Positions 48,001 through 54,000 of a DNA stretch of 64,000 bases are shown piece by piece. The DNA is taken from contig JBBSVU010000006.1 in the NCBI GenBank assembly GCA_038046645.1, positions 23,404 through 87,403 of the forward strand, written 5' to 3'. The stretch comes from an archaeon (GTDB lineage Archaea; Iainarchaeota; Iainarchaeia; Iainarchaeales; 0-14-0-20-34-12). A program made the position numbers. Position 1 is the first letter of the stretch. Every line of letters starts with the position of its first letter.

Positions 48001-51000
48001 AAATACAGGAGTTATGCAACAGAAGTGGGTTTAACGATCAATATTTGGATGGTTATTCTTACAATCCCTTAAATACAATAAGGTATTCAAATATCTACAA
48101 GGTTTTGTATAATCTCTTTATTATTTCATTAGATAAAGAAAAGCAATTGCCTGAAATTAGAGAGAAACTTGATTTTTTGCACACACTTATTTCTGATAGC
48201 TTATTTTTTGATGCAATTGAATCTGTTGAAGAGGTTGATTATGACAAAGAATATGTTTATGACTTATGTGTAAAAGAGCACAATTTTGTTGCAAATAATC
48301 TAATCATTCACAATAGTTTTTCAACAGCTTGTTTAATTGAAGAGCTCCTTAACCGGCAAAAAGAAAAAGGCAGGATTGCAATTGTTGTTTTAGACCCGCA
48401 TGGTGAATATTCCAGCTTTGCCCAGCCTGTGAAAGATGGCAAGTATGAGGATTTTTCTGACCGCACGAAAATCATTAAAGCCCAAAACATCAGAATAGCT
48501 GTGCCAAAAATGAGCGTTCATATGCTTTCTGGAATAATTCCTGGATTAACAATTCCGCAGAAAAGGGATTTAAGCAGGATTTTATCAAGCCTTAAAGAAG
48601 ATATGTATCGCGGCTTAGGGCCTTTTGATTGGTCACATGTAAAAGATGCAATTTTGAAAGATGACAATATAAAGCAAAATTCAAAATTCCCTTTAATGGG
48701 CTGGATTGATGATCTAATGTCCTATAACTTATTTGCGAGGACAGATATGCCTGCTGTTTCTGAATTAATTAAACCAGGAACATTAACAATACTTGATTTT
48801 TCAGACATAGTGAACATGAAAAAGAAGCAGATGATTGTAAGTTATTTTGCAAACAAGCTGTTTGATGAAAGAAAATCAAATGTAATTCCCCCGACACTTT
48901 TAATTGTGGAGGAAGCTCATCAATGGTGTCCGCAGATGGCATCAGAAGAATCAGCTATTTCCCGTTCCATTCTGCGAACAATTGCAAGGGAAGGAAGAAA
49001 ATTTGGAATGTCCCTTTGCATAATTTCTCAAAGGCCTGTTCAGCTTGATACCACAACACTTTCACAATGTTCCACTCATTTAATTTTGCGCATTACAAAC
49101 CCAAACGATTTGAAACACATAGCAGAATCATCAGAAGGAATTGACCAAAGAAGTTTTGGAATAATAAATTCCTTGCAGGTTGGGGAAGGATTGCTTGTTG
49201 GGGAAGCAACAGGCTATCCATTATTTTTTAAGGTAAGGTATAGGAAATCAATGCCAAGCAAGCATGAAATTTCCCTAGAAGATGCAGCTTTGAAATTTGA
49301 AAGCTCTGCAGATAAAACAAAGGCTGAAACCGAGGGATTTTTGGAATAATCATCAACTTGCCTATTTATTTCCTTAATTCTTTAATAATCTGGTCCCTGG
49401 CCTGAATGCATGCGTTTTTGCATTCTTCATTTAATGGTGATGGAAGATTTCTGCTATCAACAATCTCCTTATCAGTTATTTTGCCAATTGCTGAAACAGC
49501 CCTAGTTATTCCTTCTTGGTATTCTGCTTCACTTTTACTTCTTAGCCCAAGCAAGTGTTTAAAACTCTCAATTGATCCAGTGCGGCTTCCAGTAATTGGT
49601 ACGGCATATTGCACTACAAAGTGGAGGCGCAAGCGTTCACCAGTGTGTTTGTTGCCATTTCTTATTGATTCAATGACTCTTTCTTTTGTTCCTAAATATA
49701 TTGGCCTTACTGCATCAACAATTGCATTTTCTGCATACAGCTCTAAAGCATCGCCATACCTTGCTTTTAAATCTTTCCAGAACCTGGCATAAATTGTTTC
49801 TAAACGTCTTAATTCACCTGTTCCCTGCTCTGGGGGAAGAGCACCTTCTTTAATCCAAACAAGCTGTTTTGCTAATTCTTCACTGCATTCTCTTTTCAAT
49901 TCCTTTAATGGCGGGCGCCGTATTGGAATAGCTTCATGGCTTTCAATAGACCTTCTTCGTGCCATATTCCAAGGAACTGGTTTTGCTGGTGCTTTTGGCA
50001 TAATATTTACTTCTTTAGAACTGTTTATATTTGTTATTATGTAGTAGAATGTGTTTCCTTTAGTTTATAACAAAAACTATCTTGATTTATTTTTTAGGAT
50101 TGTTTTTAATTGTTTTATGTGCTTATTTTTGTATGCCTGTGAAGTTAAGAACCAGAACAATTAGATTTAGGGAACGGCAGGGCCAAGATACTTATTATTA
50201 TGAATTAATTAAGGAAAGAATAAAGCGCCGTTGGAGATATCGTATCCGTAAAGGATTAATGAAGGCAGCAGAATGCCATAGTGCAATATTTAACAGGTTG
50301 AAAAAATTAGGAATCCCAATATCTACTTTATATGATGTAAGAACCGGCGGGATGCAATATACTGCCAAGGATATGTCAAAAGGCGGCTATTTAAGGATAA
50401 TTAATGCATATGAAGCAACAATTGCAGCAAGAAAGCGTACAAAAAAATGGGCTGATGCATCTGCCTACTGGAAAGACAACCCTATCTCGAATATGCGCAG
50501 CATTGTTTCAGGCATTACTAGGGATTTGGCAATAATGCACAAAAATGGCTTGTTTATTTCAGGGCGAAGAGTTGTTCTTGAACCTTGGCTTGTTTATTTT
50601 CGCGGAAAAGAAAATGAGAAGCAAAGAATTGCATCAAGGGCAATCACTGATGTCGGGTCAATACTTGAAACATCCAAAATGAGTATTAATGATATTTATG
50701 ATGCATATATGGATAATATTGAAGACCTACATATTAGTTTTCCTGAAGAATATCAAAGCCTTATTGATAAAACATATGCAAAATATTTTACTTCGGCCTA
50801 ACCATCTAATTCAATGAAAAGGTCTTAGCTTAGCATTCAGGGGAAATGCCCCTAGAGGGAAAGTTCAGGGGAAATCTACTCTCCTTCAATTTCTTTAAAT
50901 ATCCAAAAACCGCATTTTTAGTATGTCTTCCACACCTGGCACACTTTGGTTAAGCAACGCAACATACATAAATGAAAAAAGAAGGATAACTATTGAATTT

Positions 51001-54000
51001 TCAAACAAAGAAACCAAGATAACTAAAAATTACGATTTTTATCCAGTAATGTTTATCCTTAAATCTGATTTGAATGAAAAAATGCTTTATGAAAAAATAA
51101 ATTATTTAGGGGCTAATTCATTTAATATCATCAAAAATAAGGAAACCCTAAAAATTATTGGCAAGAATTATTCTAAATTAAAAGAATTGCAAAGTTATTT
51201 TTCTCGTAAAGAAACCTTCCTGATTGAACCTGAAAGGCAATTTCTGCTTTTGAATAATTGGAGTTATTTTGATGCATTTACGTTTGATGTTGATATTCCA
51301 AATAAACAGAATACTTTCTTGTTTCCCTCACTAACTCTGGAGTTTTTTGAGAATCCTTTAGATTCTTTAATCACCAATCTGCGTTTTGAAGATAAGAAGG
51401 CAGCAAAGCAATTGACAAGATGCCTGCTGCTTTCCAATCTTCTGTCAGTCTCTTTTCAAAAAGTTCCACTGAAGAAAAAGCATCAGCTTGAAACCCTTGT
51501 GGAAAATAGTTTATTTTTGCAGGAAAAAGTATTCATCAATTCAGGCAAGCAAAGAATTTATTTCAGAAATGAAACCGTAAGGGGTAATTTTAAAAATCTG
51601 CTAGAGCTTGATTTTTCTTCAATATGGCCGGAAGTCATTGCAAGCAATAATATAGGTTCTGAAATGGAAAATTGCAAATGCTGCAAGCCTGAAGGCATTT
51701 ATTCAGAAAATATCTCTCCAAATTCACTTGTTTCAGTTGAATTTTTAGAAGATGCATTTTATTATGATTCAAATTTTGCGTGGTTTTCCAATAAATACCA
51801 CATGGAGAATACAAACAAAGACAGAAGATTGCTGAGAATGAGGGAATTTTTCACAAAAAATATCCCAGTAGGCCCATTTTTCCAAAATGAAACAAAAAAT
51901 ATCCCTATTGATGATGCAAAACAGCTGGAAAAAGAAGGGCTTGCCAGAATTTTGCCGAATGATTCTCAAATAAAATGGTTCTGCATGAATGAAAAAACAG
52001 TTTTGAGCAGCATGGCCAGCAAATTAATTCTAAAAGTAAGGGAAATAAATTCAAAGATAGGGTCATATGAAAAATTATTTTTTGATAATTTCAAGTTAAA
52101 TGGCTTGCATCTGCTTGAAAATGACCTTAATTATGCTTACCTCAAGCAGTATGCTGTTTTGATATCAAGCATATTCAAAAGCATGCCTCAATTTTTGCTT
52201 GACCCAAAAAACCAATATTATTCCTATGCTACAGCTGAATCTTTCAGAAGCCTGCAACACTCACTCATTGCACAATGGAAAGTGATGATGGAAAAGGAAG
52301 GTACAAGGATTATTGCAGTTGATTCTTTTTGCAACAAAATATTTGTTGAAGGGGCTTATCTGAAACCAGAATTCTTCAAGGAAAAAGGGCTTTTGCTGCC
52401 TGTCTGCCTTAAACACCATGAAGAAGTATATTTCTAATTATGGCTTAATTCCAGCTTAAAACGGCTTTTTAAGCCAATTTAAAGCCATAACTGCTTTTAG
52501 TCATGGTTTTTATTTCTTTTGCTGTGTTAACTATTATTACAAAATATTCGTTTAACCATAATATACGCATTTTTTGTCAGATTTTTGGTGATTTAATGGC
52601 ATTAACACGTTTTGAAAAAACCCGTTTGATAAGTGCAAGGGCTTTGCAGTTGTCAGTCGGTGCTCCAGCTTTAATAAAAGTAGACAAGAATGATTCTTGT
52701 TATGATTTAGCAAAGAAGGAATTGGATAAGAAACTTCTTCCCTTGAGTATATTAAGGCAATACCCAAACGGAAAGGTTGACATAGTTGATATTTAATAGG
52801 TGATATTTTGGGAAAAGCAATTTCAAAAGCATTAAAATCTAAGGCTGAAACTCTTCTTGAATTAATGGGCGAAAAATTTATTCAAGACTTTGATGCAAAT
52901 AAAAAAGTATTGCAGCAGTTGGACATGCCTTATTCTAAAGTAGAAAGGAATATTATTGCAGGGTATATTACTAGATTGAAGAACCAGGGCGCAAAAATAG
53001 TTTAATCCCCTGATATTTCTAATTTTATTCTACATCATGAACGTTAAGTAATGTACTTCTAGCATTGATTGTGGGATATTTTCTTAATTCAGCAATAATT
53101 GCTAATGCAGTTTCCCTTTTTGTTTTATCCTTTATCCCTTTTGCATATTTTTCTGCTTTTTCCGGATCCAAATAGCCTATTTCAAAAAACGTCACGGTTC
53201 CTTTTTTAGTGAATCCAATATTTAATGGGTTTAAAGTGGCTCTTAACCCAGCATTTTCAAATCTTTTTAATAGTCCTTTTCTATTTGCCCTATCGATTAT
53301 TTCAGACACAGGAAATATGCGCCTTATCCTGTCATGGTGTTTTAGAGAAGCTTGTGAAAAAGGGCCTAACTTATAAAAGCCACCGATTCCTTCTAGGCTT
53401 CTTTCATCCAAATCAATTTTTTCAAAATAAGTTAGCCTTAGCTTTCTGCTTACAGCAACAGGTTTTGCAAAATGCTTTGGGAAAAGTAGGTGCGCAAGGG
53501 TATGTGCCAAATTATATTTTGCAGAAGGTGTTCCACGTAATTTTCTTCTTTGTACAAAACCCTGCAATTTACTTTTTTTCCAAGTAATCTCTCTAACTTC
53601 TGCGTGCTCACCCCTCATTCTAATAGGGGCTCTTTTTCTTATCATTTTATTCCACATCCCTAACAATAGGCTTGGTTATGCCTTCTTCATCCTTATTCCT
53701 TTCCAAAAAATAAATCTTTGCAGATGCAGCATTTTCCATTTCGCTGTCATGTGTTATGAGAAATATCTGGTCAATTAAAGTAGGCATATGTTCTCTCATC
53801 AACAAACTTAATCTTGAAACAGTCATCCTGTCAAGGTTGTGGGTGGGTTCATCCAATATCAACCAGCTCAGGTTTGAAGCTAGTACCAATGAAAATGCTA
53901 GCCTTATTGTTAATGCAGCAGCACTTCTTTCCCCCCCGCTCAACAATCCCTCAATCCTCTGCCATTTAGCCCTTGTTTTTATCATTAAAGTGTAATCCCC

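What a model noticed while it worked through the whole genome (the two positions that open the first line are those of the whole stretch)
50923..52437. Thumbless, polymerase-dead PolB relic in the repair regulon
g00364 (504 aa) matches no Pfam model even at E 0.5, yet its predicted structure is the N-terminal, exonuclease, palm and finger domains of a family B DNA polymerase with the thumb missing; polymerase motif C (YGDTDS) is gone, while an ExoI-like E-x-E, an ExoII-like YFD and four cysteines (CxCC...C) are conserved. I read it as a PolB-derived 3'-5' exonuclease or DNA-end sensor that is made together with RadA, HerA and NurA, since its promoter carries the repair-regulon box here, in the sister species and in another family of the order. 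New would be a further, lineage-specific class of inactivated PolB with a role in archaeal DNA repair.
Evidence so far: No Pfam family at E<=0.5 and no NCBIfam or Swiss-Prot row (tables). Only 16 relatives in 5.8 billion proteins, 26-33% identical beyond the species, none with a meaningful name. AlphaFold2 on a 14-row alignment: mean pLDDT 87.4, pTM 0.86. Foldseek against PDB: the top 50 are all family B polymerases, E 5e-12, prob 1.0. VIA-align: Z 19.2, 346-366 residues aligned, model 9-504 on Tgo/KOD/Pab PolB residues 1-588, i.e. without the thumb. hhalign against this genome's own PolB g00037 aligns the fingers and the motif C region (prob 58%, E 1e-4), and YGDTDS faces a non-conserved stretch. 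Invariant in 14 sequences: R105, W113 S114 Y115 D117 F119, N243 G245 C251 C253 C254 P256, H293, R302, P315 G317 P [...]
(Added by a program. Inside this text positions count along the whole contig: contig position 23,404 is position 1 of the stretch shown here. "Call 12" and the like, gene names such as g00115 and contig names such as C1 are that model's own, and its searches are not shown. The text may have been shortened before it was handed on; [...] marks where a part breaks off. The agent that wrote the report below was given it as the finding of a first reader that could run no searches.)

Follow-up and report, generated by a model that had tools for sequence, protein, structure and literature searches.

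The report
Dead PolB adaptor beside HerA
This gene encodes a stripped-down, almost certainly inactive copy of the cell's main DNA polymerase that has lost its proofreading and DNA-gripping parts, gained a small docking domain borrowed from the replication factor GINS, and most likely works as a non-enzymatic helper attached to the DNA-break-repair motor HerA.

Summary
The ORF (window 50923-52437, +, 504 aa) is real and its fold is that of a family B DNA polymerase (Foldseek E 1e-12, VIA Z 19.8; profile-profile E 4e-15 to 2e-18 against this lineage's own PolB). The exonuclease domain is not present: 47 residues replace about 223, and the 'ExoI/ExoII-like' residues are the PolB N-terminal-domain motif. 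The family is not tiny: 222 cluster representatives, found in 163 of 182 sampled genomes of the order (relatives are titled Candidatus Iainarchaeum). Thumb, motif B and motif C are gone.

New here: about 100 residues inserted in the palm hairpin after motif A, clasped by four invariant cysteines, are a homologue of the GINS B-domain (hhalign E 1.6e-6; controls 0.21 and 0.36). The gene lies directly downstream of herA on the same strand in 16 of 20 loci. A complex prediction for an orthologous pair places that insert on HerA (0.70 against 0.00 for controls; 2 of 3 runs).

Best reading: a catalytically dead, HerA-docked adaptor in recombinational repair, not an exonuclease. The scan has met this family before in other Iainarchaeota genomes, with the same reading. 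I found no paper describing it.

The parts
50836..50854 (+). distal copy of the promoter box (TTCAGGGGAAAT core)
   Evidence: Exact 12-mer match. The 12-mer occurs 5 times in the 64-kb window.
50864..50882 (+). proximal promoter box, exact 19-mer consensus TTCAGGGGAAATCTACTCT, about 11 nt upstream of the TATA element
   Evidence: the same 19-mer with 0 mismatches precedes radA, herA and mcm. Background rate of the degenerate 12-mer in related loci is 0.014 per 148-nt window.
50894..50901 (+). TATA-like element TTTAAATA, 29 nt before the ATG (leaderless or near-leaderless mRNA inferred)
   Evidence: Read from the sequence. Its function as a TATA box is an inference.
50923..52437 (+). ORF of the PolB-derived protein (504 aa plus stop)
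50923..51288 (+). aa 1-122: PolB N-terminal domain. Conserved Y15, F26, F39, P41, and P103-ERQFL-108 ... W113 .. F116 D117 . F119.
   Evidence: hhalign relic 1-122 to PolB 1-138 (E 0.008, weak but collinear). Motif match to the own PolB. Conservation.
51289..51429 (+). aa 123-169: 47-residue remnant standing in for the deleted 3'-5' exonuclease domain (PolB 139-361). Only one short strand and two helices. ExoI and ExoIII acidic residues are not conserved.
51430..51672 (+). aa 170-250: second part of the N-terminal domain and first palm segment with motif A (LDFSSIWPEV). Asp230 is D in 72, N in 16, S in 3, E in 2, Y in 1 of 98.
51673..51684 (+). C251-x-C253-C254: three of the four invariant cysteines, at the entry of the insert
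   Evidence: 98 of 98 invariant. The same hairpin position in the order's PolBs reads C-x-H-x2-C or C-S-C-C.
51718..51954 (+). aa 266-344: GINS B-domain homologue inserted in the palm hairpin, with a helical hairpin (about aa 286-312) inserted in it. Signature GPF-x7-[IL]P-x3-A-x2-L. This is the predicted HerA-contact face.
   Evidence: hhalign against the order's GINS: Prob 90, E 1.6e-6; controls E 0.21 and 0.36. VIA Z 6.7, rmsd 1.7 over 53 residues to Gins51 C-domain 5ghr_B. Foldseek prob 0.94 but E 0.26. Interface. Most conserved region of the protein, 2.13 bits per column.
51982..51984 (+). C354: the fourth invariant cysteine, at the exit of the insert (W352-x-C354)
   Evidence: It aligns to the YFC of the own PolB hairpin.
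51985..52212 (+). aa 355-430: finger helices. The motif B (KxxxNSxYG) positions are not conserved.
52213..52434 (+). aa 431-504: second palm segment. The motif C (YGDTDS) position reads IAVDSF and is not conserved. The protein ends where the PolB thumb would begin.
43483..44580 (+). nurA (context; box-preceded)
   Evidence: Pfam NurA 1.6e-13. Box variant with 2 mismatches.
45753..49349 (+). herA with intein (context; box-preceded). Predicted docking partner, tested on an orthologous pair from another genome.
52503..52796 (+). rpoK (Rpb6), conserved downstream neighbour
   Evidence: Pfam RNA_pol_Rpb6 8e-7. Downstream of the relic in 19 of 20 loci.
53647..56019 (-). rad50, convergent neighbour
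   Evidence: Pfam AAA_23 and SMC_N. Within about 3 kb in 18 of 20 loci.

Best explanation
The protein is a duplicate of this lineage's own family B DNA polymerase, turned into a non-catalytic adaptor.

Anatomy:
- It keeps the N-terminal (template-strand/ssDNA-facing) domain, the palm scaffold and the finger helices.
- The exonuclease domain is cut down to 47 residues and the thumb is gone. Motifs B and C have decayed, so it can neither proofread nor polymerise.
- A copy of the GINS B-domain, a small protein-docking module, was inserted into the cysteine-bearing hairpin that follows motif A. Four invariant cysteines (3 + 1) clasp its base, probably around a metal ion.

Proposed working:
- Through this insert the protein docks on the periphery of the HerA motor. 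The gene sits right behind herA, between nurA-herA and rad50.
- It shares with them, and with radA and mcm, a promoter-proximal regulatory box.
- It thus brings a PolB-derived DNA-binding body to the HerA-NurA end-resection machine, to target, load or hand over DNA during recombinational repair or fork restart.

Shown: fold, homology, domain losses, the GINS-B homology of the insert, synteny, distribution.
Predicted only: HerA contact.
Inferred: DNA binding, metal binding, the step in repair.
For: PolB descent:
- Foldseek top 50 all PolB, E 1.2e-12. VIA Z 19.8.
- hhalign of a 98-sequence family profile against 8 PolBs of the order: Prob 99.2, E 2e-18 in global mode; Prob 98.5, E 3.6e-15 for relic 170-496 on PolB 362-602 in local mode.
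- The family profile also hits the genuine PolBs of relatives at E 4e-10 to 8e-4.
- The relic's CxCC...C lies in the same hairpin as C-x-H-x2-C...C (5 of 8) or C-S-C-C...C (2 of 8) in the order's PolBs.

Inactivity:
- Exonuclease domain replaced by 47 residues.
- No thumb. None of the 150 best representatives exceeds 546 aa.
- No residue above 25 of 98 at the motif C position. No K/N/Y/G of motif B. Motif A Asp in only 72 of 98.

Insert is a GINS B-domain:
- hhalign Prob 90, E 1.6e-6. Reversed-GINS control E 0.21; PolB-versus-GINS control E 0.36.
- Best structural matches are Gins51C 5ghr_B (Z 6.7, rmsd 1.7, 53 of 55 residues), 3anw_A and 9moj_D.
- The insert is the most conserved region of the protein.

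HerA link:
- herA lies directly upstream on the same strand in 16 of 20 loci from 18 families, and within 7 kb in 18 of 20. rad50 is convergent in 18 of 20.
- Complex prediction on the G031 pair: scores 0.71, 0.70 and 0.00, median 0.70; best of 3 controls 0.00. This mark is reached by 116 of 157 solved complexes and 2 of 215 mismatched pairs. The runs agree in at least 0% of contacts. Partner pLDDT is at least 82.
- I know of no solved HerA-PolB complex (recalled, not searched), so a pass from memory is unlikely.
- All confident relic contacts fall in the insert, at own residues 275-282, 301-312, 318, 321 and 338-340. They include conserved D277, G278, Y280, E308, L311 and P318.
- The HerA loops contacted (D318-x-P320; G-P-[FY]-D-L) are degenerate in 4 of 4 HerAs from family f31, where the relic was not found (0 of 7 genomes).

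Regulon:
- The box precedes radA, herA, nurA, mcm, nreA and a Cas4-like nuclease in this genome.
- It precedes the relic in G000, G001, G019 and G033 by a strict match. Variant forms are seen by eye in further families.

Selection:
- The gene is present in 163 of 182 sampled genomes of the order.
Against: - No experiment and no expression data.
- The HerA contact is a prediction for an orthologous pair from another genome (G031), not this window's own proteins, because the own HerA carries an intein. One of three runs scored 0.00, and home-made alignments were used.
- The HerA patch is also kept in 4 of 5 HerAs from other orders that lack the relic. It therefore has some other or older role, and the interface is not more conserved than the rest of HerA in relic-bearing genomes (0.35-0.61 against 0.53-0.57).
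- NurA, and with it the system, exists without the relic: family f31 7 of 7, other orders 17 of 19. The relic is an accessory.
- In family f3 (L035) the gene is neither next to herA nor preceded by the box.
- The box matches a strict consensus in only 3 of 14 further loci. The looser count, 9 clear plus 1 doubtful of 12, is by eye.
- The box also precedes mcm and selfish genes, so the regulon does not point to repair alone.
- The structural match of the insert to GINS-B (Z 6.7; Foldseek E 0.26) is on its own below the level the tool calls reliable.
- The relic evolves faster than its neighbours: 67% identity to the sister species against 86-90% for HerA, NurA, Rad50 and CCA.
- PolB2/Dpo2 was once called inactive and proved active (PMC11791011, passages). 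That is a caution against calling any PolB dead from sequence.
Confidence: 0.55

Rival explanations
1. Replisome scaffold. The dead PolB body, like the inactive C-terminal half of eukaryotic Pol epsilon on CMG, is tethered to the replicative helicase. It would use its GINS-B-like insert to take a B-domain's place on GINS, MCM or their partners. Its nearness to herA would then reflect shared regulation only.
For: - The insert is a GINS B-domain homologue.
- Gins51C is a docking site for GAN and for the DP1 N-terminus (PMC9023282, abstract in the search listing).
- mcm carries the same box with 0 mismatches.
- Pol epsilon's inactive PolB module binds CMG (PMC7544198, passage).
Against: - Conserved gene order is with herA/nurA/rad50, not with mcm or gins.
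- The only complex tested (HerA) passed with controls at 0.00.
- The own DP1 is short (492 aa) and seems to lack a long N-terminal domain; the only DHH protein is 338 aa. Both are readings by eye. No complex with GINS, MCM, DP1 or the DHH protein was tested.
Confidence: 0.15
2. Residual enzyme. The protein still catalyses something: a crippled polymerase or extender in the manner of PolB2/Dpo2, or a new nuclease site built from the conserved H293, R302, D331 and the cysteine-bound metal in the insert.
For: - PolB2 was wrongly thought dead (PMC11791011, PMC8764526: abstracts and passages).
- Motif A Asp is kept in 72 of 98 sequences.
- The insert holds invariant polar residues.
- The language-model neighbours are short archaeal PF00136-only PolBs, score 0.90 (a lead only).
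Against: - No acidic residue is conserved at motif C. There is no motif B, no thumb to hold a primer-template, and no KKRY region.
- The insert's conserved residues follow the GINS-B signature, which is a non-enzymatic fold.
- Neighbours are herA and rpoK, not the iRadA/PPB2 partners of PolB2 (PMC4104785, passages).
Confidence: 0.07
3. One reading: a PolB-derived 3'-5' exonuclease using an ExoI-like E-x-E and an ExoII-like YFD.
For: E104 (85 of 98) and D117 (83 of 98) are fairly conserved acidic residues.
Against: - They lie in the N-terminal-domain motif shared with the own PolB, upstream of that enzyme's true ExoI (FDLET).
- The RNase-H-like exonuclease fold is absent: only helices and one short strand between residues 123 and 221.
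- The ExoI-equivalent and ExoIII-equivalent positions are not acidic or not conserved.
Confidence: 0.03
4. A decaying relic without a specific function, kept by chance or by polar effects on rpoK.
For: It evolves faster than its neighbours: 67% against 86-90% identity to the sister species. The C-terminal 60 residues are missing in family f30.
Against: - Intact frame in 163 of 182 genomes across about 30 families.
- Five fully invariant and 23 nearly invariant columns in 98 sequences.
- It has its own conserved promoter.
Confidence: 0.05

Closest known systems
Archaeal PolB2 / Dpo2 group (the 'inactivated' family B polymerases of Rogozin 2008 and Makarova 2014; PolB2 mutasome of Timinskas and Venclovas 2025)
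   Same: A PolB paralogue with a decayed exonuclease part and substituted catalytic motifs. It is linked to the DNA-damage response and thought to work in a multi-protein assembly.
   Different: - PolB2 keeps the thumb, one motif C Asp and a recognisable (inactive) exonuclease domain. It is an active extender polymerase and sits in an operon with iRadA and PPB2/arCOG07300 (PMC4104785, PMC11791011, passages).
- The relic has no thumb, no motif C Asp and a 47-residue exonuclease remnant. It has a GINS-B insert and herA/rpoK as neighbours.
- Its phylogenetic relation to PolB2 was not tested.
C-terminal inactive PolB module of eukaryotic Pol epsilon (Tahirov 2009)
   Same: A dead PolB used as a structural adaptor on a ring helicase.
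   Different: The Pol epsilon module is fused to an active polymerase and binds CMG. The relic is a free-standing protein predicted to bind HerA. No specific kinship is shown.
P-domain plus CysX [4Fe-4S] site of the Pol epsilon catalytic core (ter Beek 2019, PMC6582351)
   Same: An extra domain inserted in the palm, with four cysteines in a 3 + 1 arrangement (C665/C668/C677 ... C763) clasping its base. The relic has C251/C253/C254 ... C354 around its insert.
   Different: - The inserted fold differs: GINS-B-like here. Pol epsilon was not among the 50 best matches of the insert.
- That the insertion point is the same hairpin after motif A rests on my recollection of the Pol2 motif A position and was not tested.
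- The metal is unknown.
GINS B-domain (C-terminal domain of archaeal Gins51; also the PriS C-terminal domain)
   Same: Sequence-profile and fold similarity of relic residues 266-344. It is a small docking module.
   Different: It has no A-domain, carries an extra helical hairpin, and is embedded in a polymerase palm. Its predicted partner is HerA rather than GAN or DP1.
Archaeal HerA-NurA (with Mre11-Rad50) end-resection system
   Same: Genomic and regulatory context. The predicted physical partner is HerA.
   Different: As far as my searches show, no PolB-like accessory subunit has been described for HerA-NurA. Mre11 is encoded elsewhere in this order.

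Membership tests
Family B DNA polymerase (fold and descent) | N-terminal, palm and finger domains of PolB fold; detectable sequence homology | tested here: met
   Foldseek E 1.2e-12 with the top 50 all PolB. VIA Z 19.8. hhalign E 3.6e-15 to 2e-18. PDB profile hit 5mdn_A, E 0.005.
Family B DNA polymerase (Pfam PF00136 / PF03104 membership) | Score over Pfam's gathering threshold | tested here: not met
   0 families at E<=10.
Family B DNA polymerase (enzyme) | 3'-5' exonuclease domain with ExoI, ExoII and ExoIII | tested here: not met
   47 residues replace PolB 139-361. ExoI- and ExoIII-equivalent positions are not conserved or not acidic.
Family B DNA polymerase (enzyme) | Motif A DxxSLYPS with catalytic Asp | tested here: inconclusive
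   The DFSSIWP stretch aligns to motif A. Asp in 72 of 98, Asn in 16.
Family B DNA polymerase (enzyme) | Motif B KxxxNSxYG and motif C YGDTDS | tested here: not met
   No conserved K/N/Y/G. At motif C no residue exceeds 25 of 98.
Family B DNA polymerase (enzyme) | Thumb domain | tested here: not met
   The model ends at Tgo residue 588 and at own PolB about 615 of 806. No representative longer than 546 aa among the best 150.
PolB2 / Dpo2 group | Operon with inactivated RadA and PPB2 (arCOG07300) | tested here: not met
   The flanking genes are herA and rpoK in 16 and 19 of 20 loci. iRadA and PPB2 were not searched for elsewhere in the genome.
PolB2 / Dpo2 group | Placement in the PolB2 clade of a PolB tree | not tested
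   No PolB2 sequences were on hand. The ESM Atlas neighbours (short PF00136-only archaeal PolBs, score 0.90) are a lead only.
GINS B-domain | Profile similarity to the C-terminal domain of Gins51 | tested here: met
   hhalign Prob 90, E 1.6e-6 over the whole B-domain (GINS 130-181); controls E 0.21 and 0.36.
GINS B-domain | B-domain fold | tested here: inconclusive
   Best matches are GINS B-domains, but at Z 6.7 (rmsd 1.7, 53 aligned) and Foldseek E 0.26 with prob 0.94. The insert model has pLDDT 72.
Pol epsilon-type palm insert with CysX metal site | Four cysteines (3 + 1) at the base of a domain inserted in the palm, binding a metal cluster | not testable with these tools
   The pattern C251-x-C253-C254 ... 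C354 is invariant.

The most novel reading that the evidence does not exclude
The GINS B-domain is a portable docking module for ring motors. In this order a copy was spliced into the metal-binding hairpin of a duplicated PolB, creating a HerA-bound, polymerase-derived DNA-handling subunit. This would be an archaeal, repair-side counterpart of the dead PolB half that anchors Pol epsilon to CMG.

The HerA patch it uses predates the relic, because it is kept in other orders. HerA may therefore originally have bound GINS itself, which would physically couple the replisome to the end-resection machine.
Probability: 0.25. Interest if true: 0.8.

Novelty: new variant of a known kind. Interest (0 to 1): 0.65.

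Why it matters
- Inactivated polymerases reused as scaffolds are known: the Pol epsilon C-terminal half, PolB2 as first thought, poxvirus F12. This one has an architecture I found in no paper: no exonuclease domain, no thumb, and a GINS B-domain inserted in the palm under a four-cysteine clasp.
- It has a concrete, testable partner, HerA.
- It would add an unknown subunit to the archaeal HerA-NurA end-resection system.
- It would show that the GINS B-domain can be moved as a docking cassette.
- It points to a possible metal site in the palm hairpin of active archaeal PolBs of this lineage.
- It also gives a name and a hypothesis to a gene present in about nine in ten genomes of a whole DPANN order.

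Tried and rejected
- **Exonuclease reading:** rejected.
- **'The relic replaces Mre11':** rejected. A 431-aa Metallophos protein, Mre11-like by my own reading of its motifs, is on contig C14, and DP1 of PolD is on C23. This Mre11-like gene is in none of the 20 relic loci.
- **Insert as a relocated exonuclease domain:** no alternative hhalign hit of the relic to the PolB exonuclease region.
- **Foldseek on the insert alone:** no match at E<=0.001.
- **RNA evidence:** no RNA holder listed; read laying not used.
- **The search for related loci:** alignment A1 had no stretch usable for patterns. The window's own protein found nothing, as own records are left out. P0007 gave 4 loci, two of them titled Candidatus Iainarchaeum archaeon.
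- **GAN/RecJ or DP1 N-terminus as partner of the GINS-like insert:** only one DHH protein (338 aa, no box) and a short DP1 were found. Not tested further; the single complex job went to HerA.
- **PWM scan for the box across families:** Cross-family box counts therefore rest on a strict pattern (3 of 14), longest shared substrings with nurA/herA upstream regions (box-containing strings of 10 nt or more in 4 loci: L034, L047, L050, L051), and reading by eye.
- **Rfam on box sites without an ORF:** only sub-threshold rows.
- **Literature:** five searches and passages of PMC7544198, PMC4104785, PMC11791011 and PMC6582351 showed no description of this family. Supplements were not opened, and the PolB group tables in the supplements of PMC7544198 could list members.

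Full report
**1. The object**

- The ORF at 50923-52437 (+) encodes 504 aa.
- It sits in a 35% G+C, 1.17-Mb, 25-contig genome. The genome's relatives carry record titles 'Candidatus Iainarchaeum archaeon'.
- Pfam gives nothing at E<=10. NCBIfam gives only a far sub-threshold type-B-polymerase row over residues 221-254.
  - 16 hits in the word-indexed search;
  - AF2 pLDDT 87.6, pTM 0.86 on a 15-row alignment;
  - Foldseek top 50 all family B polymerases, best E 1.2e-12;
  - VIA-align Z 19.8 with 350-370 residues aligned, model 9-504 on residues 1-588 of Tgo/KOD/9N polymerases.

**2. Size and range of the family**

The figure of '16 relatives' comes from the word index, not from biology.
- An exhaustive HMMER search with the family profile finds 222 representatives of 50% clusters at E<=1e-3 and 138 at E<=1e-30. 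None of the best 150 is longer than 546 aa.
- In whole genomes the gene is found in 38 of 41 relatives.
- In a class-wide sample of 201 genomes it is found in 163 of 182 genomes of the same order, but in only 1 of 19 from other orders.
- One in-order family (f31) has none in 7 genomes of 76-86% completeness.
- It is therefore a near-universal, single-copy gene of one DPANN order.

**3. What is left of the polymerase**

I aligned 98 full-length members and compared the profile with 8 genuine PolBs of the order.
- Global hhalign: Prob 99.2, E 2e-18.
- Local mode splits into relic 170-496 on PolB 362-602 (Prob 98.5, E 3.6e-15) and relic 1-122 on PolB 1-138 (E 0.008, weak but collinear).
- Between them, 47 residues (123-169) face 223 residues of PolB, which is the whole 3'-5' exonuclease domain. 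The model shows only a short strand and helices there.
That stretch lies in the N-terminal domain, upstream of that enzyme's true ExoI, FDLET.
- ExoIII's Y..D faces E..A.
- Motif A is recognisable (DFSSIWP against DFSSLHP), but its Asp is D in 72, N in 16, S in 3, E in 2 and Y in 1 of 98.
- The motif B positions hold no conserved K, N, Y or G.
- At motif C no residue exceeds 25 of 98 and Asp is seen in 11 of 98.
- The protein ends just before the KKKYA stretch of the own PolB, so there is no thumb.
- The exonuclease hypothesis therefore falls. The claim of a dead polymerase is strengthened.

**4. The insert**

- Residues about 255-353 have no counterpart in PolB. In the hhalign alignment they replace the 13-residue hairpin CKKNIAPNNHYFC that follows motif A.
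- The insert is the most conserved part of the protein: 2.13 bits per column against 1.3-2.0 elsewhere.
- Its ends are marked by C251-x-C253-C254 and C354, invariant in 98 of 98.
- The order's active PolBs have C-x-H-x2-C...C (5 of 8) or C-S-C-C...C (2 of 8) in the same hairpin. This argues that the relic descends from the lineage's own PolB and that the cysteines are an inherited clasp, probably a metal site.
- Folded alone (pLDDT 72), the insert's best matches are GINS B-domains: 5ghr_B at Z 6.7, rmsd 1.7 over 53 of 55 residues, then 3anw_A and 9moj_D. The related PriS C-terminal domain follows. Foldseek agrees in rank but not in significance (E 0.26, prob 0.94).
- The decisive test was by sequence. 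The insert profile against a 28-sequence profile of the order's own GINS gives Prob 90, E 1.6e-6 over the entire B-domain (GINS 130-181).
  - Both share the spacing GPF-x7-[IL]P-x3-A-x2-L.
  - A helical hairpin (about 286-312) is an extra insertion.
  - The reversed-GINS control gives E 0.21 and PolB against GINS gives E 0.36.
- The arrangement recalls the P-domain of Pol epsilon with its 3 + 1 CysX cluster at the base (PMC6582351 and PMC7544198, passages). That the insertion point is the same is my recollection and was not tested.

**5. Context**

- In 20 loci from 18 families, herA lies directly upstream on the same strand in 16 and within 7 kb in 18.
- rpoK follows in 19, and rad50 converges on it in 18.
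- nurA precedes herA wherever the contig allows.
- The exceptions are L035 (family f3, none of these neighbours) and L036 (rpoK only).
- The only Mre11-like gene I found (a 431-aa Metallophos protein, named from its motifs by eye) is encoded elsewhere.
- NurA occurs without the relic: family f31 7 of 7, other orders 17 of 19. The relic is therefore an order-specific addition to an older system.

**6. The promoter box**

- TTCAGGGGAAATCTACTCT lies about 11 nt upstream of a TATA-like element. In this genome it precedes radA, herA, nurA (2 mismatches), mcm, nreA, a Cas4-like nuclease and the relic (two copies). It also precedes 8 TnpB copies and at least 5 free-standing LAGLIDADG genes.
- It marks a DNA replication/recombination regulon that selfish nucleases have joined, not a pure repair regulon.
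- Upstream of the relic in other genomes, a strict pattern (at most 1 mismatch) is met in 3 of 14 loci (G033, G019, G001). The chance expectation is 0.014 per window.
- Variants such as GCACCGGAAAC are seen by eye in 9 clear and 1 doubtful of 12 loci, often in tandem, and not in family f3.
- In four loci the relic shares a box-containing string of 10-20 nt with its own genome's nurA or herA upstream region.

**7. Partner test**

The own HerA carries an intein, so I used the intein-free pair of a complete relative genome (G031, locus L049), with alignments A4 and A5.
- Complex prediction gave 0.71, 0.70 and 0.00 (median 0.70) against 0.00 for all three controls. That mark is reached by 116 of 157 solved complexes and 2 of 215 mismatched pairs.
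- The runs agree in at least 0% of contacts, and partner pLDDT is at least 82.
- All confident contacts on the relic lie in the GINS-like insert. In own numbering these are 275-282, 301-312, 318, 321 and 338-340, and they include conserved D277, G278, Y280, E308, L311 and P318.
- On HerA they lie in loops between Walker A and Walker B: 207-235, 268-274 and 316-332.
- These HerA loops (D318-x-P320; G-P-[FY]-D-L) are kept in relic-bearing genomes and degenerate in the 4 f31 HerAs examined. They are also kept in 4 of 5 HerAs from other orders without the relic. The patch is therefore older than the relic.
- This is a prediction. It supports binding and does not show it.

**8. Reading**

- The best explanation is a catalytically dead PolB duplicate that docks on HerA through an inserted GINS B-domain. 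It would contribute a PolB-derived N-terminal/palm/finger body, presumably a DNA-binding one, to end resection or fork restart.
- A replisome-scaffold role through GINS partners is the main rival.
- Residual catalysis is unlikely but, given the history of PolB2, must be assayed.

**9. Earlier notes and literature**

- Earlier notes of this scan on other Iainarchaeota genomes (e1-3533388, e1-1408062, e1-3793543) reached the same reading. I arrived at the PolB descent and the GINS-like structural match before consulting them. Most later steps followed, and one note led me to the Timinskas paper.
- Five literature searches, plus passages of four papers, showed no published description. Supplements were not opened.

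Noticed in passing
L088 (G007:C10:18500-21861), minus strand, 520-aa ORF: A GINS B-domain (51% identical to own GINS residues 138-176) is fused to the N-terminus of a P-loop protein that looks like a D5/P4-type primase-helicase. This is a second case of the B-domain used as a movable module, here probably in a mobile element.
   Followed up: partly
L013-L028 (PolB genes of the order), hairpin after motif A; own PolB at G000:C1:67388-69805: Active PolBs of this order carry C-x-H-x2-C...C (5 of 8) or C-S-C-C...C (2 of 8) in the palm hairpin. This suggests a metal site in genuine archaeal PolBs, which a 2020 survey says had not been detected.
   Followed up: partly
genome-wide; in the window at 4342 (-), 32410 (+), 45694 (+), 50836 and 50864 (+): The 19-nt box next to the TATA element precedes radA, herA, nurA, mcm, nreA and a Cas4-like nuclease. 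It also precedes 8 TnpB (OrfB_IS605) copies and at least 5 free-standing LAGLIDADG genes. Selfish nucleases seem to ride the replication/repair regulon. The regulator is unknown.
   Followed up: partly
G000:C1:61175 and G000:C6:211201 (L113, L114): Two box sites without an ORF are followed by a shared stretch of about 100 nt. It resembles a TnpB 3' end plus an RNA scaffold. Rfam gives only sub-threshold rows (RAGATH-18 at 29 bits, HgcC at 23 bits).
   Followed up: partly
window 50082-50801 (+), 239 aa: An ORF without a Pfam family lies between herA and the relic. A box-preceded paralogue lies at G000:C1:78979, and two copies flank herA in the sister species (L051). It is probably a mobile or expanding lineage-specific family.
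   Followed up: no
window 53647-56019 (-) and G000:C14:70737-71402: rad50 is not next to the Mre11-like gene in this order: that gene (a 431-aa Metallophos protein, named by eye) lies on another contig and is absent from all 20 relic loci. A non-conserved 212-aa ORF (53025-53666, -) overlaps the end of rad50.
   Followed up: partly
L103-L106 (HerA of family f31): HerA of the relic-less family f31 has lost the D-x-P and G-P-[FY]-D-L loops that the complex model uses as the docking site. HerAs of other orders keep them.
   Followed up: partly
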